A DNA stretch of 21,083 bases from a virus (IMGVR_UViG_2802429228_000007:1-21083); one strand, 5' to 3'; counted from the first letter of the stretch, positions 8,196 through 21,083 are shown. The notes: generated by a model not told the origin, from the sequence alone. Made by a program: numbers and translations.

Positions 8196-9581
8196 TCACC
8201 AATAAATAATAACAATCCCATTAGCACCTTTCCCGGCTCTAACTCCAGTTGATAGCGTGGGTTTCAATCCCGCACCACCACCTCCTGGAGCAACCGCATC
8301 TGCAGCAATGTTTGTGGAGGTGGTGGCGGAAGCGCCGTATCCTCCTGGCCCCCCACCTGATCCACCAGGGATAGACTGAAGTAATGCTGAATTTGTCGAA
8401 TCAATAACAGCGCCAGGGGAACCTGGACCAAGTGAGGATATGTTTGTTGCTCCGACCCCTACGCCTGAAGGGCCACCGGATGGCTGCCCCCCACCACTAC
8501 CTCCCGTAGCAGACATATATGTGCCAAAAGAGGATGACCCGCCACTGCCACCGTTCGATGAGATGGTCGTTGCAGCACTTCCCCCCTGACCAACAGTAAT
8601 ACTGACGGTTGCTATTCCAGTTAAATCAACTAATCCTTCGGCGATACCACCGCCGCCACCGCCGCCACCGGAGGTGCTCGAAAGATTTCCAATCGCACCG
8701 CCTCCTCCAGCACCTATAACGCGTACAAATGCCTTTCTTCCATTCTTAAGCACATCAGGAACTTCCCAATTTGTAACTCCTACTGCACTGATATTAATAT
8801 AATTTTTTAATCCATAAGTTGAATCTGTTAAACCAAGGTATTCGAGAATAGCGGCGACATCTTTCCCTGACAGGTCTGTTAGCGTCTTATCCAGCGGCTG
8901 CTTATTCGCCAGTTCCCCGGATACAAGGGCGGCAATAACCGCCCGCACAAACTCCGCTGTAGCAACTTGTGTATCATTTGCTACGACCGGCGGCGTGGGT
9001 GCTCTTGGCTTGCCGGTAAAGGTCGGGCTGTCCTTTGTCGCATATTGTGAATGCGGGTCAGCCGCCGCAAGGTGCTTAGACATCAAGTCATCGACATACA
9101 GTTTCAGCTCAATTGCCTTGTCATCGGCATATTTTCGGGTTGCCAGAACGACTGACGGGTCGATTTTCAGGGTGATTGCCGACGTGCTCGACACAATCAG
9201 AATCATGCGAATGGTCTGCGTGCGGCCGCTTCCCTCCTGCAGTTGCGGCTTGTAGGTCTCCGGGCAGTTCGCCACGGCAATCAGGATGCCGTCTGTATCG
9301 TAGAGGCCAATCTCGCGGATCCAGAAACCGCCCTCATTCTCGGGAATAATCTGTTCCGCGATAATCTGACTGGTATTGGCCGGGTCAACAGTCAGCTGGT
9401 TCAGCGGCGCGATGCGCTTCTGGTTAATGAGCTTGGTCTGCGCCGGGTCAGGGGTCGGCAACGTACCATTCGCATCACCGACGGCCATCTGCGTCAGGTT
9501 GAGTTTGGTACCGAGTGCCGCCGCGTTCGCCAGCCGCGCCGCGCCCTGATTGGTCAGAATGGCAAAATATTTTGCGGTCAT
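8196..9581 (-). CDS. H: Tail fibre protein gpH-like with a glycine-rich C-terminal domain
   Basis: 461-aa ORF. The N-terminal 270 aa or so match the conserved gpH N-terminus (ATG at 9581 overlaps the I stop). The C-terminal 180 aa or so are Gly-rich low complexity (GAGGGGAIG, SGGGGGGGG, GGSGGS, GGSGGGQPSGGPSG, GGSGGGPGGYG, APGGGGAG) ending GIVIIYW. Confidence 0.85.
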   Translation of the reverse strand: MTAKYFAILTNQGAARLANAAALGTKLNLTQMAVGDANGTLPTPDPAQTKLINQKRIAPLNQLTVDPANTSQIIAEQIIPENEGGFWIREIGLYDTDGILIAVANCPETYKPQLQEGSGRTQTIRMILIVSSTSAITLKIDPSVVLATRKYADDKAIELKLYVDDLMSKHLAAADPHSQYATKDSPTFTGKPRAPTPPVVANDTQVATAEFVRAVIAALVSGELANKQPLDKTLTDLSGKDVAAILEYLGLTDSTYGLKNYINISAVGVTNWEVPDVLKNGRKAFVRVIGAGGGGAIGNLSSTSGGGGGGGGIAEGLVDLTGIATVSITVGQGGSAATTISSNGGSGGSSSFGTYMSATGGSGGGQPSGGPSGVGVGATNISSLGPGSPGAVIDSTNSALLQSIPGGSGGGPGGYGASATTSTNIAADAVAPGGGGAGLKPTLSTGVRAGKGANGIVIIYW

Positions 9582-12073: not shown

Positions 12074-12204
12074 ATGGGAAGGATGACGCCCGGCAAGATT
12101 AGTGGCAATCGAGATGGATTCTGTGAGGAATGAAACAACTTCTGAGAGGTCTACTCAACATCTATGAAATCTTGTGAGAATTAATTAGAATAGCCAAGTT
12201 GAAT

Positions 12205-12771
12205 ATGCAATTACCCTGGCTCACAGTAAAAAATGAAGGTGTTTGGCAAATGACTGAAAGAAAAAAAACCTTAGGCGATGATGAGGTTGTGCCTTATTTT
12301 AATAACGATTGTGAACAAATAAAATTCGAATTTGCTTATTTAATAGTTCTTTTTGTAATAGGTTGCATTCTCGCCTTTCTTTTCCAATTTGTTTTTGAGC
12401 TGTCATATAATAATAAAATATCTTTGTTTTCTATTCTTGGCGGCTTTTTTGGAGGGTGGGTGTATAATGCAAAATGGTTTTATAGAGTAACTGCTAGAGG
12501 GAAAAACAATCAGTATAATTTTCCTTGGGAATCCCATAAGTTCTACTGGAGGATTTTTATTCCGTTCTTAGCTGCTTTAGTGGCTTTTTGTTCTTATACG
12601 ATATTATCTCCGGATACGTTTGTATCCTCCATTAAAGGGCATGGTAAGACCAAAATTGCATTCTCGATTTGTTTTATATTAGGATATTTTTCAGACTTAG
12701 TTCTAAGCCGACTCGCATCTTGGGCTGAAAAATTGCTCCCTAAAAAACCAGGAGACAATAAACGTGAATAA
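12205..12771 (+). CDS. Predicted 4-TM inner-membrane protein, unknown function (cargo cassette gene 1)
   Basis: AT-rich ORF on the opposite strand to the flanking tail genes. Four hydrophobic segments (FAYLIVLFVIGCILAFLFQFVF, ISLFSILGGFFGGWVY, IFIPFLAALVAFCSYTIL, IAFSICFILGYFSDLVL) and a K/R-rich C-terminus. Start uncertain: TTG 12199, ATG 12205, or ATG 12250 preceded by an AAGGTG Shine-Dalgarno-like sequence. Stop overlaps the next gene's GTG start by 8 nt. Confidence 0.6.
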   Translation: MQLPWLTVKNEGVWQMTERKKTLGDDEVVPYFNNDCEQIKFEFAYLIVLFVIGCILAFLFQFVFELSYNNKISLFSILGGFFGGWVYNAKWFYRVTARGKNNQYNFPWESHKFYWRIFIPFLAALVAFCSYTILSPDTFVSSIKGHGKTKIAFSICFILGYFSDLVLSRLASWAEKLLPKKPGDNKRE

Positions 12772-13408
12772 TTCTTGTAATTCGTTCTGTGGAATATGCG
12801 ATGAAATAAATGGCATTAGCCTTATCAAAGGATACGATGAAATCGTAAATGACAAGAAAAATATCATTGCAGAAACAAATGATTTTCTAATTGTACCTAG
12901 TATTGGCCCGCTAAATAATTCGCATGTGATGCTGATTCCTAAGCGGCATATCAACTCCTTTGCTGCTCTTGATCGAGATACCCGGAGTAATGGCAAGGAG
13001 ATTCTGCGAGAACTTAATGAATTTATAATCCACCAATCTGGTAGATCTCTAATTTTCTTTGAAAGCGGAGCAGGTGAAAATATAGATCGTTCAGGAGGGT
13101 GCATTTCTCACGCTCATATACACTGTGTTTATTATACACAAGAGTTTGAAAATGCTCTAAATAAAGAAATTAACTTTAAGAAAATTGAAGGTGAGAATTT
13201 AAGTTTTGACATTAAAAATGGATATGTGTGGTATATGAGTAATAGTTATGATGAATTTTTATGCAACAAACCACTCTTACCATCTCAGTTCCTTAGATAT
13301 CTTTATTCTAATGCAAATTTGATACATGGCAATTGGAATTGGCGCAGAGATAACAACATCAGCGGTGTTCTAGAGGTTATTGATAATTACGCAGATTTCA
13401 AACTATAA
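12764..13408 (+). CDS. HIT-like (histidine triad) nucleotide hydrolase/transferase superfamily protein with a C-terminal extension of unknown function (cargo cassette gene 2)
   Basis: 214-aa ORF, GTG start 7 nt after an AGGAG Shine-Dalgarno. N-terminal CxxC (FCGICDE). HVMLIPKRHI segment resembles the Fhit/Hint H.L..P..H core. Histidine-triad motif HAHIHCV (H-x-H-x-H-x-x) preceded by SGGC. About 85 further C-terminal residues with no recognisable motif. AT-rich. Confidence 0.6.
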   Translation: MNNSCNSFCGICDEINGISLIKGYDEIVNDKKNIIAETNDFLIVPSIGPLNNSHVMLIPKRHINSFAALDRDTRSNGKEILRELNEFIIHQSGRSLIFFESGAGENIDRSGGCISHAHIHCVYYTQEFENALNKEINFKKIEGENLSFDIKNGYVWYMSNSYDEFLCNKPLLPSQFLRYLYSNANLIHGNWNWRRDNNISGVLEVIDNYADFKL

Positions 13409-13909: not shown

Positions 13910-14378
13910 CCCACTTACTCACCAGTTCGCCGTTAACGTACAGCTCGACCGGGCGCGTCACCGGCTCAGGCAGTGGCGGCTCAGGGGCATAGCTGACGTG
14001 CAGCGCGCCGTCGACCTCTTTGACGAGCGTGCGCTCGGTGAGCCTCAGGCTGATACTGATATCGAGCGAATCGTCGTTATTGATATCAATAATCCAGGTG
14101 AATCCTTTTTCCCGCCCGTCGTCGGTGGTCATAATGTCCGGCTGATGTTCACGCAGCCACGCCTGCACCGGCACGAATATCAAATCAAGGTCACCGGTGA
14201 AGTCGGTCACCACCACGTTAAGCACGTACACCTTTTCAAACGACAGCGAGCTCGCCAGTCGGGAATCGGTATGGCCGTTGTCGGCAAAAAGGCGCAGCAT
14301 ATCGGGATTATTTCGGAGCTGCGGCACGGCGTTAATCAGCGCTTTGCGCAGGCTTTTGTGCTTCTGCATCGAGTTCAT
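13902..14378 (-). CDS. R: Tail completion protein gpR
   Basis: 158-aa ORF immediately downstream of the spanin genes; position and size match gpR. Confidence 0.85.
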   Translation of the reverse strand: MNSMQKHKSLRKALINAVPQLRNNPDMLRLFADNGHTDSRLASSLSFEKVYVLNVVVTDFTGDLDLIFVPVQAWLREHQPDIMTTDDGREKGFTWIIDINNDDSLDISISLRLTERTLVKEVDGALHVSYAPEPPLPEPVTRPVELYVNGELVSKWDE

Positions 14379-14622
14379 CCTGACAGTGTTTGACGGTTTT
14401 AACCTGCAGCGCGCAGGCGGTCAGCGCGCCCTCAAGACGGCGGATATCTGCGCTCAGGTCACCATTGGTTTTCGGGTCACTTCCCGGCATCGGACAAAGG
14501 CTCACCCTCGGGCATCCGCTGACCACAATCACCGGCACTGGCGCAGGCGGTGCGGGTGTGCAGCCGACGCACAACATCAGGCAAAGCAGCGTTATACCAG
14601 CGGCGAAAGGCTTCATTTTCAT
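14332..14622 (-). CDS. lysC: o-spanin (Rz1-like outer-membrane lipoprotein), LysC equivalent
   Basis: 96-aa ORF starting inside lysB in another frame, with a GAGG Shine-Dalgarno 8 nt upstream of ATG 14622. Signal peptide with lipobox-like LCVGC followed by the proline-rich stretch TPAPPAPVPV, typical of Rz1/o-spanins. Extends past the lysB stop into R. Confidence 0.7.
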   Translation of the reverse strand: MKMKPFAAGITLLCLMLCVGCTPAPPAPVPVIVVSGCPRVSLCPMPGSDPKTNGDLSADIRRLEGALTACALQVKTVKHCQDELDAEAQKPAQSAD

Positions 14623-14890
14623 TAAGTAACCTCGTTATCGTCTGCTCACGGCGGCTGGCCTCTGCGCTGGCCTTTGCGAGCTGTTCGCGCAGTTCCACCT
14701 GCGCGGATTCATTACGTCGGGCAAGCTGACCGGCAACACTGAGCTGATTTTTCAGCATGCCAATCGTCGTCTTTTGTTCGCTTGCGACGCGGTTTGCCGT
14801 CTCAAAGGAGCGGGATAAATTGCCGTTCTCATGGCGCAACCACAGCAGCCCGAGCACGGCCAGCACCAGCAGCGTTATCAGGATTTTCAT
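14477..14890 (-). CDS. lysB: i-spanin (Rz-like), LysB equivalent
   Basis: ATG at 14890 (MKILITLLVLAVLGLLWL...): N-terminal TM helix followed by a coiled-coil-like periplasmic domain, 137 aa. In this sequence the reading frame is continuous upstream with the truncated gene A. Confidence 0.75.
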   Translation of the reverse strand: MKILITLLVLAVLGLLWLRHENGNLSRSFETANRVASEQKTTIGMLKNQLSVAGQLARRNESAQVELREQLAKASAEASRREQTITRLLNENEAFRRWYNAALPDVVRRLHTRTACASAGDCGQRMPEGEPLSDAGK

Positions 14891-16767
14891 GCCATCACCC
14901 CGCCAGCCGTGCGCCACACAGTGACCAGTTTGTGAACTCCGAGGGACGGCTTTGCCGTCCTGAAGGTCAACGGCCAAATCAACAGCATGCTTCGGAACAA
15001 TCTTCCACTGAGTGAGCCGGGTTAAAATCGGGCTACCTGCACCTATGGAGGAATCGTAGACCCCCTTAATACATACCGTTTCCTCACCGTACTGATTAAG
15101 CTCGGTACGTGGTTCATACAGTGTGCGCACCTGTAAATCATCGCGACGGACAAACGGTCCACCCTGCGCATTAACATAACCAGCCCAGTCACCAGCGTCG
15201 GCGGCATCATGGACGGCGGCAAACTCAACGCTCAGTCCGTGCGCGGTTTCGGTATCAGCGAGGCGACGCAACTCACGGTAAACCGTCACCGGCGCACCAC
15301 CGATAAACTGAAACTGACGGATGTGCCAGCGCGAAGCCCATGCTGAAACGGCGGGGGCTGTCTCTTTCAGCAGTTCACCGCTTTCATCATCGGTTTCACC
15401 ATCGAGAGCATAACCGTCGATATTTTTTGATATGTATTTAGCAACATAGCCGGTTGCGCTGCCTTTCTCCGGGTCAATGGACTCGGCGTGGAAACGTGCT
15501 TTTTTTGCCTTATCGCTTTTCAGTTCGCGGCGGTCTTCTTTCCACGCGTATTTACGGACGATGGAGCGAACATATTCAACATCTTCCGGCAGCATGAACA
15601 TCAGCATGTGCCAGTGTGGAGTACCGTCGTGATGGGGCTCGGCGACACGAATACCGAAAATACGGACATCTTCCCGATGCAGTTTGGCACGGATACGCGC
15701 CCAGATATCAGTTAGATAGTTTTGCGTGTCAGCCGGGCTGGCACCGCTCCATTTGCTGTTACGGTAACCGGCTTTAGTCGTGGCGTGATATTTCGACGGC
15801 GCGGTCAGAGTGTAAAACTCACCGACATAACCGAGCTCATTACAGATGTTTTCAAACCCACGAATGCGAGTCATGAGCTCACAGCGGCGAATCGCAGGGT
15901 TAGCAACTGAGCCATCATATTTTTCAATCAGGCTGATACGGTTGCCGTCTTCGTCTTCGAGATCCAGACCTTTGAGAAATTCACGAGTTCGGCGCTTTTG
16001 TTCACGCCAGTCAGTCACGCAGTTTTTACTCGCATAGGTGTTTTTTTTCTTGCTGACGTTGCCGACTGCAATTTGCAGGTGTTCGCGCCACGTAGCTGCA
16101 ACCCGGCGCAAACGACCACGCCACCACCCATCGTTAAACATCTTGGCGATAGCCGGTGCGATTTCATCCGCGCCAACATATTTTTTGCAACCCGATCCCA
16201 ATGGGGGGGGATAACGTTGAACTGGAGGGAAATAAAGCCAGCACGATTATACCAGGTGTACAGCGTTTTAAGCTCGCCGAATCCGTGGTCATTAATGTTG
16301 GCAAGTTCACCACGAATGAAATTAGCAATATCGGCGGCCAACAGGTCAACATCAGCGCGCGACATATCCGGGAGGCGGTTATATCGGGCGACCATATTAA
16401 CCATGCGTGACGCCAGATATTGCATAAGCTGGGTATCAAAATGACTTCCAAAAACAGAGGTTGATACCTTGCTGTTGATACCCGCGCATTCGTATTTTTT
16501 TGCGACCAATTCAAGACGCGGCAATGCCTTTTTGCAGAAGCTGATCAAAAAGGCATTGGCTCGTTGAATGCCCTGATTTTGCTCCAGCACTGCCGCAGTG
16601 CGATAAACATCTAACCGCACGCAGTCGGGCTGGAGAGAAAGCACCTTTTTAGCATGCAGCATCGCCGCGAACATACGGTCGCGGCGATGCTGTTGCTTAT
16701 AAGTAAGGTATGGGCTGGCTATAGCCGATCGTGGAGCATTCCACGGATAAGCGAATTGAACAGCCAA
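14891..16767 (-). pseudogene. A: Replication initiator gpA (rolling-circle endonuclease), frameshifted and 3'-truncated, running in frame into lysB
   Basis: N-terminal part in the 16767..16015 frame (TTG start after a GGGGGG Shine-Dalgarno; YPWNAPRS, NRLPDM). The remainder is in the 16201..14891 frame with hallmark motifs IAKMFNDGWW, FYTLTAPSKYH, EPHHDGTPHWHMLMF and YVAKYISKNIDGYALDG. The frames switch at a C8 run (plus-strand G8 at 16203-16210). There is no stop between the A-like sequence and the lysB ATG. Confidence 0.8.
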
Positions 16768-16768
16768 T

Positions 16769-16990
16769 TTATACCCCCCGATAGTGTTTGTTTTTTAGCT
16801 CTGCGATTTGCTGACAAGTCACGCAAAATGCCACCCCCTGAATTGCAGCACGGCGAGCTTCCGGGATTGGTGAGTCACATTCTTCGCAGAGGAAAGGAGA
16901 GGACGCTGCTATACGGCTGCGCGCGTTGCTGATGTGGCGCTCGCGGTCTTCCTGCTCGCGCAGTTGTGCTAAATCCATTGCGTCGGCCAT
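16769..16990 (-). CDS. TraR/DksA-family C4 zinc-finger protein
   Basis: 73-aa ORF with CEECDSPIPEARR...AFCVTCQ (CxxC-N17-CxxC). Start overlaps the upstream gene stop (TAATG-type coupling). Confidence 0.7.
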   Translation of the reverse strand: MADAMDLAQLREQEDRERHISNARSRIAASSPFLCEECDSPIPEARRAAIQGVAFCVTCQQIAELKNKHYRGV

Positions 16991-17217
16991 TAGTGCAGCT
17001 CCTGTGATTCGTTTTCGTAGCGGGTGGCCTCACGGCGCAGCAGTTCAGCGGCTTCGGTGCCGTTCATGCCCTCTTTAGTGATATGGATAGCCAGCGCCTC
17101 AAGACGGATTGAAACGGCGAGTGCGCGGTCTTTGCGTTCTTCTTTTTTTGCATCTGTCAGCAGCACGGCCAGCGTGTCACTATCAGTATTAAAACTACGG
17201 GGTTCGGTATTACGCAT
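16990..17217 (-). CDS. Hypothetical early-region protein
   Basis: 75-aa ORF with an AGGAG Shine-Dalgarno about 8 nt upstream of ATG 17217; translationally coupled to the TraR-like gene. Confidence 0.5.
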   Translation of the reverse strand: MRNTEPRSFNTDSDTLAVLLTDAKKEERKDRALAVSIRLEALAIHITKEGMNGTEAAELLRREATRYENESQELH

Positions 17218-17283
17218 AACTAACTCTCCTGATTTTGGGCAATAAAATGCCCGGCGGGTTTACGCCATTAATTTCTGTTTTGG

Positions 17284-17622
17284 TTAATTCGGCATGGTTA
17301 GCCGTTTGGGAAATAAGCTCACTACTGCACGAAAATGATTCATCGCTGTAATAAGCGCTTTTTTCTCGTCAGTAGTCAGCTCACTTAATTCGAGCTCATG
17401 ACGAGCCGCCGGTATTTTTGCCAGAAAGAAAATAGCGGCCAGCGCCCGATTATTTTCTTCAAATTGAGAGTCACGTTTATCGCGCATATCATCGACAAAG
17501 CGCTCAACCTCTTTCCAACTATCGCCCCAATATCTCGCGCGCAATTCAGCTACATGATTGAGACCGGCCAGACGTTCACCCGCTTTTAGCGGAATAGTCG
17601 CGGAAACAGCTTCGATAGCCAT
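17284..17622 (-). CDS. Hypothetical early-region protein
   Basis: 112-aa ORF in the early operon downstream of the fil-like gene; overlaps the fil-like 3' end by about 37 nt in another frame. No recognisable motif. Confidence 0.45.
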   Translation of the reverse strand: MAIEAVSATIPLKAGERLAGLNHVAELRARYWGDSWKEVERFVDDMRDKRDSQFEENNRALAAIFFLAKIPAARHELELSELTTDEKKALITAMNHFRAVVSLFPKRLTMPN

Positions 17623-17786
17623 GATTCCCCCAGCTTTTGAGTAGAGAGGCCAGCCAGTAAATCAGACTGAGAGCGGCACGGGTGCCAGCGCTTACCATCT
17701 TTACCCGCGATCCAGCCGTGACCGTAATGCATACCTGGATTTTGTTTAACGAGCAGAGATGCGAATGAGGGTTCATTTTTCAGCAT
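17586..17786 (-). CDS. fil: Phage 186 Fil-like small protein
   Basis: ATG at 17786 (MLKNEPSFASLLVKQNPGMHYGHGWIAGKDGKRWHPC...) preceded by a GAGGTG Shine-Dalgarno; position directly after cII as in phage 186. The ORF track's upstream extension begins at a TTG. Confidence 0.5.
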   Translation of the reverse strand: MLKNEPSFASLLVKQNPGMHYGHGWIAGKDGKRWHPCRSQSDLLAGLSTQKLGESWLSKLFPRLFR

Positions 17787-17793
17787 AAACACC

Positions 17794-18303
17794 TCATACC
17801 AAACCAAATGTTGCGCCGATGCCGGTCATGGTATCAACCACGCTCGACATTGCCGGGTTAGCCTGTAGACGCGCCTGTAACGCCAGCGCCGACAGAGACA
17901 ACATGCGGATGCCTGCATTAACACTCTCAACCATGCTGTGTTTGCGGTCAGAGGTCATACGTTCATTTGATACCGCACCGCTCGCCAGTTCGCCGAGTTC
18001 ACTCATTGCGCGCATCACATAAGACTGCAATTTCTCTTTAGCCAGCTCATTAACCGGCACGCATGGCAGACAATGTATTTGCGCCAGAAAGCCATCAACG
18101 AGGGTTGAGTCTTCGGTCAGGTCAGTCAGCAGCCACAATTCAGGCGGTGTGAATTGGTGAGGCTGTTCTGGGTTGAGCTTGTTACGTAACGTTTGAACGT
18201 TCATACCCGCACGCTCGGCCAGCTTCGCCATGTTGTGACGCTGCGCAAAAGCCCGGCACGCTTCGTCATAGTGAGGATGTTTAGAAATCTGAAAATCAAA
18301 CAT
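17794..18303 (-). CDS. cII: Phage 186 CII-like transcriptional activator (establishment of lysogeny)
   Basis: 169 aa from ATG 18303 (MFDFQISKHPHYDEACRAFAQRHNMAKLAERAGMNVQTLRNKL... with a helix-turn-helix) preceded by an AGAGGGAA Shine-Dalgarno. Position after the apl-like gene matches the 186 early operon. Confidence 0.7.
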   Translation of the reverse strand: MFDFQISKHPHYDEACRAFAQRHNMAKLAERAGMNVQTLRNKLNPEQPHQFTPPELWLLTDLTEDSTLVDGFLAQIHCLPCVPVNELAKEKLQSYVMRAMSELGELASGAVSNERMTSDRKHSMVESVNAGIRMLSLSALALQARLQANPAMSSVVDTMTGIGATFGLV

Positions 18304-18335
18304 GGTTAAATTCCCTCTAACTTGCATAATCAAAT

Positions 18336-18707
18336 TCAGTTAAGAGCGATGCGGTGGTCGATGTAGCGACAATCAATCGCTTGCTGGGTTAGTTTGTCGC
18401 GCCATGCTTTCACGTTTACGAGGGTGCGGCTTCGTTTTCCAGCCTCTTCCTTGTTGGAAAAGTCTTTAGTTGGAGCTTTGAGGAGGATTCCCTCATCAAG
18501 CCATTGCCAGACCAGACGCTCGCTTACACCGCGAGTGGCGGCAAAGTCTTTCACTGTCATTGTGTCTGACATAGCGGAGCGGATCATTGTCTGCAGAGCT
18601 GGCAGCATAGCGGTAACGATGGCATCAAACTGAGCCGGATCTAACAGCACAGTTTGATTTTGTGAGTTTTGCGAATCATGCGTCGAGATTGATTTTGCAT
18701 CTGACAT
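18336..18707 (-). CDS. Apl/Cox-like DNA-binding protein (excision/switch regulator)
   Basis: First gene of the operon divergent from cI. Excisionase-like helix-turn-helix (MTVKDFAATRGVSERLVWQWLDEG). The true start may be an internal Met; the N-terminal 50 aa or so are low complexity. Confidence 0.5.
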   Translation of the reverse strand: MSDAKSISTHDSQNSQNQTVLLDPAQFDAIVTAMLPALQTMIRSAMSDTMTVKDFAATRGVSERLVWQWLDEGILLKAPTKDFSNKEEAGKRSRTLVNVKAWRDKLTQQAIDCRYIDHRIALN

Positions 18708-18827
18708 ATCGCATTATCTCCTGTTGTTTGTAGTGAACTGCATTGATGTGCATCGTGGTTGATAATCATCACTTTAGTTCGCGAAATTTAATTTTGCAAT
18801 GGCAAAAATTAATTTTGGTGGCGATAC
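18708..18827. promoter_or_regulatory. cI / apl intergenic switch region (divergent genes; promoters and operators expected)
   Basis: 120-bp AT-rich spacer between divergently transcribed cI and apl-like genes. Contains the direct repeat TTAATTTTG twice (18788-18796 and 18809-18817, 21 bp apart) flanking an imperfect inverted repeat AATTTTGC-AATG-GCAAAAAT. No confident -35/-10 pair could be assigned by eye. Confidence 0.5.
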
Positions 18828-19664
18828 ATGGCTAAATTTGGAGATGGTGCGGCTCCGGCTATCGAAAGAATCCTTTCGGCTTATGGACTTAGCTCGCAAA
18901 AAGAACTTGGCGAAAAACTTGGTATTTATGCCAACAACATAAGCAGTTGGCTTGCCAGAGATAGCGTTCCGGGCAATGTATTTGTTGAATGTGCTATTGA
19001 AACGGGCGCAGATATCGGATGGTTAGTGACAGGGGAGCTTGCAAAAGCAAACTCTCCACGTGCGACCCTGAAGGGCAAAGAGCTTTATGAAAAGGTCATG
19101 GCTTCAGGTGGTAAACCTGTTCTGAGACGCATCCTTGATGCTTACGGTTTTTCTATGCAAAAGGAGCTGGGTGATTTACTCGGTATATCATCTGGAACAA
19201 TTAGCACATGGGTTCGGCGTGATTTTTTCCCAGGCGATGTAGTTGTTACTTGTGCCCTTGATACTGGTGTTTCGCTGGAATGGTTAGCAACCGGCAAGGG
19301 GCAAATGCGAACTAACAGAGAAATGGTCACATCAAGTTTTTCAATTAAAAAATTTCGCCTTGAAGCGGGTGAGCTTAAGGACGCTGGCGAATGGCATCCA
19401 GACCCCTCGATGATACCCTCTGACTCAGAGGAGTTGATTTTTGTTGAAGGTGTTGGAGCCTCTTGGCTTGTCAACCGTTCTGCTTCGAACATAAGTAATG
19501 GGCGTTGGTTAATTGATATTGACGGCGCTCTTGATGTTTTTGATGTAATTCGTCTTCCCGGCGGAAAAGTCAGGTTGTCAAATAAGTCTGCCGAGTTTGA
19601 ATGCAGCATTACAGATATCACACCAGTAGGTGCTGTAATTTTCACATTGGAAAAACACGTATAA
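18828..19664 (+). CDS. cI: 186-type CI immunity repressor with tandemly duplicated N-terminal DNA-binding domain
   Basis: 278-aa ORF. Two N-terminal repeats of the phage-CI-repressor helix-turn-helix fold (RILSAYGLSSQKELGEKLGIYANNISSWLARDSVPGNVFVECAIETGADIGWLVTGE and RILDAYGFSMQKELGDLLGISSGTISTWVRRDFFPGDVVVTCALDTGVSLEWLATGKG). C-terminal domain (GRWLIDIDGALDVFDVIRLPGGKVRL...FECSITDITPVGAVIF) resembles the 186 CI oligomerisation domain. Confidence 0.75.
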   Translation: MAKFGDGAAPAIERILSAYGLSSQKELGEKLGIYANNISSWLARDSVPGNVFVECAIETGADIGWLVTGELAKANSPRATLKGKELYEKVMASGGKPVLRRILDAYGFSMQKELGDLLGISSGTISTWVRRDFFPGDVVVTCALDTGVSLEWLATGKGQMRTNREMVTSSFSIKKFRLEAGELKDAGEWHPDPSMIPSDSEELIFVEGVGASWLVNRSASNISNGRWLIDIDGALDVFDVIRLPGGKVRLSNKSAEFECSITDITPVGAVIFTLEKHV

Positions 19665-19672
19665 GGGACATT

Positions 19673-20011
19673 ATGAAACGTAAGCTTTTTTTAGCTTTAT
19701 TTCTTTCACTTTCTTTCGGTGCATCAGCCGCTGAAAAAACACAGGATTTAGACGGTGCTAAGTTTGGTGATGATTGGCCGTTAACTTTTGAAAAAGCTAC
19801 GGTGTCTTGTGTTAATGGTAGATATGCCTTTGTGTACGACAAAGCAACAGATGACCGATACCCATTAAATGGGTTTGCTATTGATGGTGTAAAGTCTGGA
19901 AAGCTTGAGGGGAGCGATATTGATACTGTTTGGAAAGATAGCCCGGATTATGAAGGAGTAAAAATTCCTTTGGATCCCGTAATGGATGCTGCGACAGCAC
20001 TTTGCGAATGA
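19673..20011 (+). CDS. Small secreted protein, DUF2511/YebY-like (cargo between cI and int)
   Basis: ATG at 19673 after an AAGGGA Shine-Dalgarno. Sec-type signal peptide (MKRKLFLALFLSLSFGASAAE). Mature protein of about 90 aa with two Cys (ATVSCVNG ... AATALCE) and a YPLNGFAIDG motif that resembles my recollection of E. coli YebY. Confidence 0.5.
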   Translation: MKRKLFLALFLSLSFGASAAEKTQDLDGAKFGDDWPLTFEKATVSCVNGRYAFVYDKATDDRYPLNGFAIDGVKSGKLEGSDIDTVWKDSPDYEGVKIPLDPVMDAATALCE

Positions 20012-20033
20012 TAAGAGTTGCCTCGGTGACATT

Positions 20034-21083
20034 ATGACTATAAGTAAGCAAAAAAATGGCAAATGGTTATGTGAGCTTTATCCTAATGGGCGAGAAGGGC
20101 GGCGAATACGTCGGCAATTCAATACCAAAGGTGAGGCCGAGGCATTCGAAGCATTTACGAAAAGCGAGAGTGAAGATAAGCCGTGGCTCGGCAAGAAAGA
20201 AGACCGCCGACGCTTAAGTGAGATTATCCAGCTTTGGCATAATTTACATGGACAGGCGTTGGTCGCCAGTAAGTCGCGGTTAGCTAAGCTTCAAATTGTA
20301 TGTAACGGGTTGGGCGACCCTATTGCATCTCGTCTTACCGCTAAAGATTGGGCTCATTACCGTGACCGTCGATTACGTGGCGAAATAGACAACGGCTATC
20401 ACAAAGACCCGGCGAAATGGATCGCCAAACCTATAACAGTCAATCGCGAACAGCAATACCTCGAAGCTGTGTTCAATGAACTGCGGCGATTAGGTGAATG
20501 GAGTTTACCCAATCCACTGGACGGGATTCGTGTATTCAAAGAAGCTGAGAAAGAAATGTCCTGGCTAACTTTGTCTCAGCTCCCGGAGCTGTTCCGAGCC
20601 TGTGAACAATATGGCAAAGAAAATCTTACTATGATTGTTAAGGTGTGCCTGGCTACTGGCGCACGATGGGGAGAAGCTGAGAGACTTACACGTCCCCAAC
20701 TTTCCCCCTGCAAGCTGACTTTCACCAAAACCAAAGGTAAGAAGAATCGCACGGTTCCGATTCCTAAATGGCTGTATGACGAGTTGTCCGAACGTCAGGG
20801 AAGAATGTTCAAGCCCTGCTATCAGGACTTTAAGAAGATGCTCAAACTCACAAACATTGAATTGACTGAAGGGCAGAAAACGCACGTTTTACGTCACACC
20901 TTTGGCGCGCATTTTATGATGAATGGCGGCAATATCCTTGTACTCCAGAAGATACTCGGTCACGCAAATATTCGTGAAACAATGAAGTATGCGCACTTTG
21001 CTCCTGACCATCTTGAACAAGCTGTCACCTTGAATCCGTTGTCACTGTGTATTGGCGACAACGTGGCGGCAGAGGTTGCGTAA
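20034..21083 (+). CDS. int: P2-type tyrosine integrase
   Basis: Starts MTISKQKNGKWLCELYPNGREGRRIRRQFNTKGEAEAFE, closely matching my recollection of the P2 Int N-terminus. C-terminal catalytic motifs ATGARWGEA, HVLRHTF and NIRETMKYAHFAPDHL (tyrosine nucleophile context). TAA at 21081-21083 ends at the window edge. Confidence 0.9.
   Translation: MTISKQKNGKWLCELYPNGREGRRIRRQFNTKGEAEAFEAFTKSESEDKPWLGKKEDRRRLSEIIQLWHNLHGQALVASKSRLAKLQIVCNGLGDPIASRLTAKDWAHYRDRRLRGEIDNGYHKDPAKWIAKPITVNREQQYLEAVFNELRRLGEWSLPNPLDGIRVFKEAEKEMSWLTLSQLPELFRACEQYGKENLTMIVKVCLATGARWGEAERLTRPQLSPCKLTFTKTKGKKNRTVPIPKWLYDELSERQGRMFKPCYQDFKKMLKLTNIELTEGQKTHVLRHTFGAHFMMNGGNILVLQKILGHANIRETMKYAHFAPDHLEQAVTLNPLSLCIGDNVAAEVA

What the first reader, a model, noticed from the sequence alone, without database searches (positions are those of the whole stretch)
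16195..16215. Replication gene A interrupted by a frameshift at a G8/C8 homopolymer
Seen in sequence: gpA-like translation runs in one frame down to ...FNVIPP and continues in another frame from ...LGSGCKKYVGADEIAPAIAKMFNDGWW. The switch coincides with a run of 8 G (plus strand 16203-16210). By my reading, nine residues would restore a continuous I-P-P-P-L-G-S-G-C-K-K-Y reading. Inference: either a real inactivating slip (prophage decay or phase-variable replication gene) or a homopolymer sequencing error.
Basis: seen in the sequence. Interest (0 to 1): 0.55.

Follow-up and report, generated by a model that had tools for sequence, protein, structure and literature searches.

The report
Frameshifted, truncated replication gene in dead prophage
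The phage replication gene is broken, but by a lost A in a nearby run of A's rather than at the G8 tract, and it sits in a prophage remnant that had already lost 11 kb, so this is ordinary prophage decay.

Summary
The G8 run (16203-16210) and a frame change in the gpA-like gene are real, but the two are not connected. The closest intact relative (E. coli A38 prophage, 99.9% identical) also has C8 here and reads ...FNVIPPHWDRVAKKYVGADE. The only indel between the two sequences is in the A-run 17 nt downstream: A7 in A38, A6 in the window (T6 at 16181-16186 on the + strand). 186, P2 and phage 613R3 confirm the native PP-x-W...KK(Y) reading, and most relatives have an interrupted CCACCAC instead of C8.

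The A6 allele is probably not an assembly error. The exact frameshifted product occurs on at least 14 contigs from independent runs and metagenomes. It co-segregates with another variant, while near-identical Escherichia marmotae contigs carry A7.

All of these copies, A6 and A7 alike, share an 11,366-bp deletion at 14933|14934. It removes the last 128 codons of gpA, half of ori, the head genes, holin and endolysin, and fuses gpA in frame to lysB. The gene was therefore already dead when the A was lost.

One curiosity is that the deletion ends 6 nt from the annotated ori nick site on one side and exactly after a nick-like CCTCG on the other. This suggests gpA made the deletion itself.

The parts
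16203..16210 (-). C8 run on the coding (-) strand (G8 on +). It encodes Pro-Pro-(His) in frame and is not the frameshift site.
   Evidence: intact A38 gpA also has C8; most relatives read CCACCAC. C8 in all 9 related contigs.
16181..16186 (-). A6 run on the coding strand (T6 on +). This is the actual frameshift site: a -1 deletion from A7 in GCA AAA AAA TAT (Ala-Lys-Lys-Tyr).
   Evidence: it is the only indel against A38 in 6,151 bp. A7 in L097-L099, A6 in L008-L013.
16015..16767 (-). gpA 5' fragment ORF (250 aa from TTG 16767, or 219 aa from ATG 16674). The native sequence runs to ...HWDRVAK, followed by a 54-aa out-of-frame tail.
   Evidence: PHROG 91 'nicking at origin of replication' matches residues 3-203.
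14934..16183 (-). gpA 3' fragment in the second frame (KYVGADE... to ...AVPRSS). It contains the HUH motif HWHMLMF (15596-15616) and the two-tyrosine motif YVAKYISK (15425-15448).
   Evidence: PF05840 404.7 bits, profile positions 63-321..
14934..14945 (-). Remnant of the replication origin: CCCTCG^GAGTTC. The annotated nick position falls between 14940 and 14939. The conserved 3' half (TGTCAATAAC...) is deleted.
   Evidence: (rep_origin annotations of 186 and P2).
14933..14934 (.). Deletion junction. 11,366 bp are missing relative to the A38 prophage: the last 388 nt of gpA, tum/dinI-like genes, cos, portal, terminase, scaffold, capsid, head completion, X, holin and all but 47 nt of the endolysin gene. 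There is no microhomology.
   Evidence: The same junction is present in 9 other contigs. It is absent from 5,426 complete E. coli genomes.
14887..14933 (-). Last 47 nt of the endolysin gene (lysA/K). In the fusion ORF it is read in the lysB frame as a linker. In intact relatives the lost flank ends ...GCCTCG immediately before this point.
14477..14890 (-). lysB (Rz-like spanin, MKILITLL...). It is fused in frame to the gpA fragment, so ORF 16201..14477 reads through. lysC overlaps it (14332-14622).
   Evidence: NCBI names the 732-aa A7 fusion 'Rz-like lysis system protein LysB [Escherichia marmotae]'.

Best explanation
The window is a defective 186/P2-like prophage of Escherichia marmotae, integrated next to yfiB. 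Two lesions hit its replication-initiator gene gpA (a HUH rolling-circle nickase).

First, an 11.4-kb deletion joined gpA, 6 nt past the ori nick site, to the last 47 nt of the endolysin gene. This removed the gpA C-terminus (128 aa), the 3' half of ori, cos, all head genes, holin and endolysin, and it created an in-frame gpA'-lysB fusion.

Later, in one sub-lineage, replication slippage removed one A from the A7 run of the Ala-Lys-Lys codons (GCA AAA AAA to GCA AAA AA). That split the already dead fusion gene into two ORFs.

The G8/C8 run 17 nt upstream is an in-frame, lineage-specific synonymous variant (CCA CCA C to CCC CCC C) and played no part.

Shown: the position of the indel, the shared deletion, and the existence and coherent distribution of the A6 and A7 alleles. 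Inferred: slippage as the mechanism, the order of the two events, and neutrality.
For: -: the intact A38 allele is C8+A7 and the window is C8+A6. The common allele is CCACCAC+A8.
- this is the only gap in 6,151 bp at 99.886% identity.
- A38, 613R3, 186 and P2 all keep the P-P/L-x-W...KK reading. The repaired protein aligns end to end up to ...PRSS, and then lysB follows.
- PF05840 scores 440.0 bits with the A-run repair and 430.3 bits with the C9 repair.
- the exact frameshifted 219-aa product is on at least 14 contigs (Logan runs SRR31021664, ERR14979981, SRR14001010, SRR25724388; ENA metagenome assemblies ERZ28508975 and ERZ28508957). All six fetched carry C8+A6 and the same junction.
- the 732-aa A7 fusion (P0001, E. 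marmotae) is on at least 5 contigs with the same junction.
- A6 versus A7 co-segregates with the variant at window 7798. L011 and L012 form a sub-clade inside the A6 group. A7 is the state shared with the outgroup A38.
- the chromosomal flank is only 88% identical to E. coli.
Against: - No reads were available, so a systematic miscall cannot be formally excluded.
- The A6/A7 bipartition rests on only one other variable site.
- Other tract-length variants exist in public proteins (C7, C9 and A8 in this allele; A6, A7 and A9 in the E. coli allele). These show the tracts are indel-prone, or error-prone in some assemblies, and recurrent change could blur a single-origin reading.
- The order 'deletion first' assumes A7 is ancestral. 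It would be wrong if A7 in L097-L099 were a reversion.
Confidence: 0.85

Rival explanations
1. One reading: the gene was broken by loss of one G/C from a C9 run (now G8 at 16203-16210). Restoring nine gives the native protein.
For: Adding one C does restore a long ORF (sequence). One public fragment, P0136, reads IPPPLGSGCKK, which shows the C tract can slip to C9.
Against: - The intact 99.9%-identical gene has C8.
- All 9 related contigs have C8.
- The C9 reading destroys the conserved HW/KW/YW and matches no intact homologue.
- It costs 9.7 bits on PF05840.
- P0136 (C9+A7) is itself out of frame and stops after ICWRG.
Confidence: 0.02
2. Homopolymer sequencing or assembly error: the organism really has A7, so the gpA'-lysB fusion ORF is continuous.
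For: The indel lies in a homopolymer. Near-identical contigs with A7 exist. Variants of both tracts occur in public assemblies, and some may be errors. ETEC1716 has a similar -1 in the same run.
Against: - A6 recurs on at least 14 contigs from different projects, including SPAdes-style metagenome contigs.
- It co-segregates with a second site.
- It is the only indel in 6.1 kb against A38, and there are no gaps against L008, L010 or L013 over 3-15 kb. The assembly is therefore not generally homopolymer-noisy.
Confidence: 0.07
3. A functional switch. The A or C tract acts as a phase-variable (contingency) tract, or as a programmed ribosomal or transcriptional slippage site, that regulates production of the replication protein.
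For: In intact alleles the run sits as A AAA AAA in the register of a classical -1 slippery heptamer. Length variants of both tracts exist among relatives.
Against: - The heptamer is not conserved. 186 has ACT AAA AAA TAT, and P2 has no run at this spot.
- The C-run is interrupted in most relatives.
- A -1 shift ends after 5 codons (ICWRG*).
- In this element the gene lacks its C-terminus and half of ori, and the prophage lacks head and lysis genes, so nothing is left to regulate.
- Runs of 6-8 are short for high-rate switching in mismatch-repair-proficient enterobacteria (general knowledge).
Confidence: 0.03

Closest known systems
gpA of phages P2 and 186 (Pfam PF05840 Phage_GPA; PHROG 91), the cis-acting HUH rolling-circle initiator that nicks an ori lying inside its own gene
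   Same: The Pfam match is 404.7 bits, or 440 bits when repaired. HUH (HWHMLMF) and Y-x3-Y (YVAKY) motifs are present. Gene order is the same (cII, fil, DUF5347, DUF2732, TraR-like, A). The ori nick sequence CCTCG^GAG lies inside the gene at the position annotated in P2 and 186.
   Different: The gene is split by a -1 frameshift, lacks the last 128 aa and the conserved 3' half of ori, and is fused to lysB. It is a pseudogene, not a working member.
Intact prophage of E. coli A38 (NZ_CP028738.1, 1195811-1226630) and TUM14697; phage vB_EcoM-613R3
   Same: The early region (int to gpA) is 99.886% identical to A38. The integration site is next to yfiB. The C8 tract is the same.
   Different: A38 has A7, a full gpA (709 aa) and all head and lysis genes. 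The late region is only 90-96% identical, so the element is a mosaic. The host here is E. marmotae, not E. coli.
Cryptic or defective P2-like prophages and pseudogene decay by homopolymer slippage
   Same: There is a large internal deletion plus a later single-base indel in a short homopolymer of a gene that is no longer under selection.
   Different: Nothing substantive. This is a typical example. The only unusual detail is where the deletion ends.
Slipped-strand contingency loci (for example poly-G/C tracts in Neisseria, Haemophilus and Campylobacter)
   Same: A homopolymer inside a coding region shows length differences between strains.
   Different: The tracts are short (6-8), not conserved, and lie in a gene with no remaining function. 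The distribution fits one inherited change, not rapid switching.
Initiator-mediated illegitimate recombination at rolling-circle origins (RC plasmids, filamentous phages), and the leading-strand overshoot of 10-12 nt at pT181 termination (PMC5703833)
   Same: One deletion end lies at the ori nick region. The other lies exactly after a copy of the 5-nt sequence that precedes the nick. There is no microhomology.
   Different: The ori-side end is 6 nt 3' of the annotated nick, not at it. It is a single case, in a dsDNA temperate phage, with no experiment.

Membership tests
Phage_GPA (P2/186 gpA) replication endonuclease | Sequence match to the family profile above the curated cut-off | tested here: met
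PHROG 91 matches the 5' fragment.
Phage_GPA (P2/186 gpA) replication endonuclease | HUH metal-binding motif and two active-site tyrosines (Y-x3-Y) | tested here: met
   HWHMLMF at 15596-15616 and YVAKYISK at 15425-15448 align with P2 and 186. PMC3986222 states that two tyrosines in motif C form the P2 A active site.
Phage_GPA (P2/186 gpA) replication endonuclease | One uninterrupted full-length ORF (about 694-761 aa) | tested here: not met
   There is a -1 frameshift at 16181-16186 and the last 128 codons are lost at 14933|14934.
Phage_GPA (P2/186 gpA) replication endonuclease | Intact ori (nick site plus conserved flanks) inside the gene | tested here: not met
   CCCTCG^GAGTTC is retained, but TGTCAATAACTGT... 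is deleted. The conserved core spans about -18 to +23 around the nick.
Inducible P2-like prophage | Head, packaging (cos, terminase, portal) and lysis (holin, endolysin) genes present | tested here: not met
   All of these lie in the 11,366 bp missing relative to A38.
Phase-variable contingency locus | Tract length differs among close relatives | tested here: met
   A6 versus A7 among E. marmotae contigs. C7, C9 and A8 variants occur among public fragments.
Phase-variable contingency locus | The tract controls a functional gene and is conserved as a tract | tested here: not met
   The gene is truncated and ori is lost. The C tract is interrupted in most relatives, and the A-run length is 6-8 depending on neighbouring codons.
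Phase-variable contingency locus | Reversible switching at high rate within a clone | not testable with these tools
   This needs reads or single-colony resequencing. The distribution across contigs fits a single change.
Programmed -1 frameshift or transcriptional slippage site | Slippery motif conserved across the family, with a meaningful alternative product | tested here: not met
   186 has ACT AAA AAA TAT and P2 has no run at this position. The -1 frame stops after 5 codons.
Rolling-circle-initiator-mediated illegitimate deletion | One endpoint at the initiator's nick site | tested here: inconclusive
   The endpoint is 6 nt 3' of the nick annotated in NC_001895 and NC_001317. The chance of falling within +/-6 nt is about 4e-4 over the 30.8-kb prophage.
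Rolling-circle-initiator-mediated illegitimate deletion | Other endpoint at a sequence resembling the nick site | tested here: met
   The lost flank ends ...GCCTCG| in both A38 and Res13-Sevr-PER07-33. CCTCG occurs 37 times on that strand. CCTCG-N5-CTG occurs only 3 times: at ori, at this site and at one other.
Rolling-circle-initiator-mediated illegitimate deletion | Dependence on initiator activity | not testable with these tools
   This needs an experiment.

The most novel reading that the evidence does not exclude
The 11.4-kb deletion that killed this prophage was made by its own replication initiator. On this reading gpA nicked ori and also a pseudo-origin (GCCTCG^ACAAACTG) near the end of the endolysin gene. 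The gpA-linked 5' end from the pseudo-site was then joined to a 3' end lying 6 nt past the ori nick, for example a leading strand that had just started or overrun. That join excised ori, cos, the head genes and the holin and endolysin genes. The remnant would then be a natural scar of HUH-nickase-mediated illegitimate recombination in a P2-like phage, and it would have been selected because it disarms lysis. The A7-to-A6 frameshift followed as neutral decay.
Probability: 0.35. Interest if true: 0.45.

Novelty: already known. Interest (0 to 1): 0.2.

Why it matters
For annotation, the practical lesson is that overlapping open frames can mislead. The eye-catching G8 tract is innocent, and the lesion is in a plain A-run next to it. 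The locus should be labelled a gpA pseudogene fused to lysB. NCBI currently names the A7 version 'LysB', 732 aa.

For biology, the locus documents stepwise decay of a P2/186-like prophage that is shared almost identically between E. coli and E. marmotae. The shared deletion and the A6 allele are usable lineage markers.

The one point of wider interest is that both deletion ends sit at gpA-type cleavage sequences. If that is not coincidence, rolling-circle initiators can disarm their own prophage, which would be a route to prophage domestication that could be tested.

Tried and rejected
- **GTDB species representatives:** a scan for the junction 29-mer gave 0 hits. The host came from the NCBI name of P0001 instead.
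- **Original P2 nick-site paper (Liu & Haggard-Ljungquist 1994):** it is not held, and searches for the ori sequence in papers found nothing relevant. The nick position therefore rests on GenBank annotations.
- **Other ori-adjacent deletion junctions:** 60 of the 180 E. coli records that matched an ori-centred query were listed, and none was truncated at ori. Four IMG/VR scans with 'not wild-type base after the nick / after +6' patterns returned only chance 17-mer matches in unrelated contexts.
- **Tailocin reading** (tail genes kept, head genes lost): rejected, because holin, endolysin and tail gene X lie in the deleted segment.
- **Chimeric assembly as the source of the junction:** rejected, because 9 independent contigs share it.
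- **PADLOC scan of the cargo genes:** no convincing hit.

Full report
**1. Observation**

The + strand has eight G at 16203-16210. The gene lies on the - strand. ORF 16767..16015 (250 aa) reads ...LQFNVIPPHWDRVAKNMLARMK... ORF 16201..14477 (574 aa) begins LGSGCKKYVGADEIAPAIAKMFNDGWW. Both are parts of a P2/186-type replication gene A. The 3' ORF matches Pfam PF05840 at 404.7 bits over profile positions 63-321. The 5' ORF matches PHROG 91, 'nicking at origin of replication', over residues 3-203.

The two ORFs overlap by 187 nt. The place where the reading frame was broken therefore cannot be read from the window alone. The G8 run is the only G/C run of 7 or more in the window, and 0.55 runs of 8 or more are expected by chance.

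**2. Where the frameshift really is**

The nearest intact relative is a prophage of E. coli A38 (NZ_CP028738.1). Window 14934-21083 is 99.886% identical to it, with 6 mismatches and one gap in 6,151 bp.

At the site, A38 reads TTC AAC GTT ATC CCC CCC CAT TGG GAT CGG GTT GCA AAA AAA TAT GTT, which translates to F N V I P P H W D R V A K K Y V. That is C8 and A7. The window has C8 and A6. The single gap is therefore in the A-run, at + strand T6 16181-16186, 17 nt from the G8 tract.

The commoner E. coli allele and phage vB_EcoM-613R3 read ATC CCA CCA CAT TGG GAG CGG GTT GAA AAA AAA TAT. There the C-run is interrupted and the A-run is A8.

Protein alignment with A38, 613R3, 186 and P2 shows the native reading:
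- A38 and 613R3: FNVIPPHW(D/E)RV(A/E)KKY
- 186: FNVTPPKWERVTKKY
- P2: FNISPLYWKKYRKGQ

The tryptophan is conserved in all four. On PF05840 that repair scores 430.3 bits, against 440.0 bits for the A-run repair. The interpretation 'switch at the G8 run' is therefore not supported, although 'one inserted base restores the frame' is true.

**3. Real mutation or error**

The exact 219-aa frameshifted product, including its 54-aa out-of-frame tail, is on record on at least 14 contigs. These include Logan assemblies of SRR31021664, ERR14979981 and SRR14001010 and two ENA metagenome assemblies. The downstream product is also on SRR25724388. All six fetched loci have C8+A6 and are 99.7-100% identical to the window. 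The apparent 6-nt insertion in L011 is a run of N.

Searching with the repaired protein found P0001: 732 aa, 100% identical over its full length, named by NCBI 'Rz-like lysis system protein LysB [Escherichia marmotae]'. Its contigs (GCA_053097245.1, ERR13369481, SRR35509424) have C8+A7.

Over 11.2 kb the only other site that splits the contigs the same way is window 7798. It is G in all A6 copies, and A or a gap in the A7 copies. L011 and L012 share a further SNP inside the A6 group. A7 is also the state in the outgroup A38. This pattern fits one heritable A7-to-A6 change in a sub-lineage, not random miscalls. Reads were not available, so I leave about 7% for error.

**4. The gene was already dead**

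gpA homology stops at window 14934. The sequence then continues with the last 47 nt of the endolysin gene, followed by lysB, lysC, R and S. This part is 96.1% identical to A38 and 99.1% identical to E. coli Res13-Sevr-PER07-33.

Relative to A38, 11,366 bp are missing. The lost segment holds the last 388 nt of gpA (128 codons plus the stop), the tum/dinI-like genes, cos, portal, terminase, scaffold, capsid, head completion, X, holin and most of the endolysin gene. The junction has no microhomology, and it puts lysB in frame with gpA.

None of 5,426 complete E. coli genomes has this junction, nor does any GTDB species representative. All nine related contigs do, whether A6 or A7. The chromosomal flank (pheA-tyrA-aroF-yfiL-yfiR-dgcN-yfiB) is 88% identical to every E. 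coli genome. That fits E. marmotae.

The sequence of events I infer is: a deletion in the common ancestor of these copies, then the A-run slip in one branch. L009 shows still further decay, with about 1.06 kb lost between cI and cII.

**5. How it works**

The lesion is a -1 slippage in a short A-run of Lys-Lys codons, in a gene no longer under selection. It produces two products: a 219- or 250-aa N-terminal fragment, and a downstream ORF that still carries the HUH and Y-x3-Y motifs but is fused to a spanin.

Replication function is not expected. The protein is split, it lacks its C-terminus, and the conserved 3' half of ori is gone.

The run is indel-prone more generally. E. coli ETEC1716 has an independent A8-to-A7 loss that PGAP flags as 'frameshifted'. 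Public fragments show these further variants:
- this allele: C8+A8, C7+A7 and C9+A7;
- the E. coli allele: A6, A7 and A9.

Some of these may be assembly errors, and their contigs could not be fetched.

A programmed slippery site is unlikely. In 186 the codons are ACT AAA AAA TAT, and P2 has no run at this position.

**6. A side result worth recording**

P2 and 186 carry their ori inside gene A. GenBank places the nick at P2 29892 and 186 28576, which corresponds to CCTCG^GAGT(C/T)C. The deletion's gpA-side end is CCCTCG GAGTTC|, 6 nt 3' of that nick. On the other side, the lost flank ends ...CACAGCCTCG| in both A38 and the closer relative. The break there therefore falls exactly where a nick after CCTCG would fall.

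On the coding strand of the 30.8-kb A38 prophage, CCTCG occurs 37 times. CCTCG-N5-CTG occurs only three times: at ori, at this site and at one other.

Rough chance figures are 4e-4 for an end within +/-6 nt of the nick and 1.2e-3 for an end directly after CCTCG. The second pattern was noticed after the fact, so the joint figure should be discounted.

This suggests that gpA itself produced the deletion. Initiator-driven illegitimate recombination is known for rolling-circle replicons. A leading strand running 10-12 nt past the nick is documented for pT181 (PMC5703833) and could explain the 6 retained nucleotides.

It remains a single case. Searches for further examples found none, and I could not read the primary nick-site paper.

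**7. Comparison and verdict**

The locus is a pseudogene member of the Phage_GPA family in a defective P2/186-like prophage. Novelty is low, and interest is 0.2. The most novel reading not excluded is the gpA-made deletion (probability about 0.35, interest if true about 0.45).

Noticed in passing
window 14933|14934 (junction); ori remnant 14934-14945: An 11,366-bp deletion fuses gpA to lysB. One end lies 6 nt from the annotated ori nick. The other lies exactly after a nick-like CCTCG in the endolysin gene. There is no microhomology. gpA may have caused it.
   Followed up: yes
window 18828-19664 (+): The CI repressor is 278 aa and has two tandem copies of the Phage_CI_repr helix-turn-helix domain (PF07022, 2 stretches; residues ~10-70 and 98-161) before the C-terminal domain. 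186 CI is 192 aa. The same 278-aa protein is present in E. coli A38.
   Followed up: partly
window 6749-7900 (+); variable site 7791-7798: An acyltransferase-3 family cargo gene (PF01757) lies between the tail-fibre and sheath genes on the opposite strand. It may be an O-antigen-modifying lysogenic-conversion gene. Its 5' region holds a homopolymer that varies among contigs (G, A or gap at 7798), which changes the called length (362 vs 340 aa).
   Followed up: partly
window 12199-13408 (+): A two-gene cargo is inserted between tail genes S and V on the opposite strand: a HIT/DcpS-like protein (214 aa) and an unknown protein (173-190 aa; PHROGs 23000 and 22917, function unknown). There is no PADLOC match. 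A38 carries a different gene at this spot.
   Followed up: partly
L005 (E. coli ETEC1716, NZ_CP122880.1) 1501-1611; proteins P0127-P0137: Independent indels occur in the same A-run and in the C-run of gpA in other assemblies (A8 to A7 in ETEC1716, plus A9, A6, C7, C9 and A8 variants). The two tracts are therefore recurrent indel or error hot spots.
   Followed up: partly
window 14934-21083 vs L003; L008 1-5590: The early region is 99.9% identical between the E. marmotae remnant and the E. coli A38 prophage, and both are integrated next to yfiB. The host flanks, however, are only 88% identical, which points to recent cross-species spread of the phage. The late region is mosaic: 99.1% to other E. 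coli prophages for lysB-I, and about 93% for sheath-D.
   Followed up: partly
L009 (ERR14979981) 1538-2338, corresponding to window ~18155-19214: One A6 contig has a further deletion of about 1.06 kb that removes the N-terminal part of cI, the cox/apl-like gene and the start of cII. The remnant is still decaying.
   Followed up: partly
protein P0001 / WP_447316150.1: NCBI names the 732-aa gpA'-lysB fusion of the A7 allele 'Rz-like lysis system protein LysB'. Four fifths of it is replication endonuclease, so the name is misleading.
   Followed up: yes
window 8196-9581 (-) and 7900-8196: The tail-fibre gene (461 aa, Gly_rich_2 C-terminus) is not followed by a tail-fibre assembly (G) gene, unlike in A38 and Res13-Sevr-PER07-33.
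   Followed up: no
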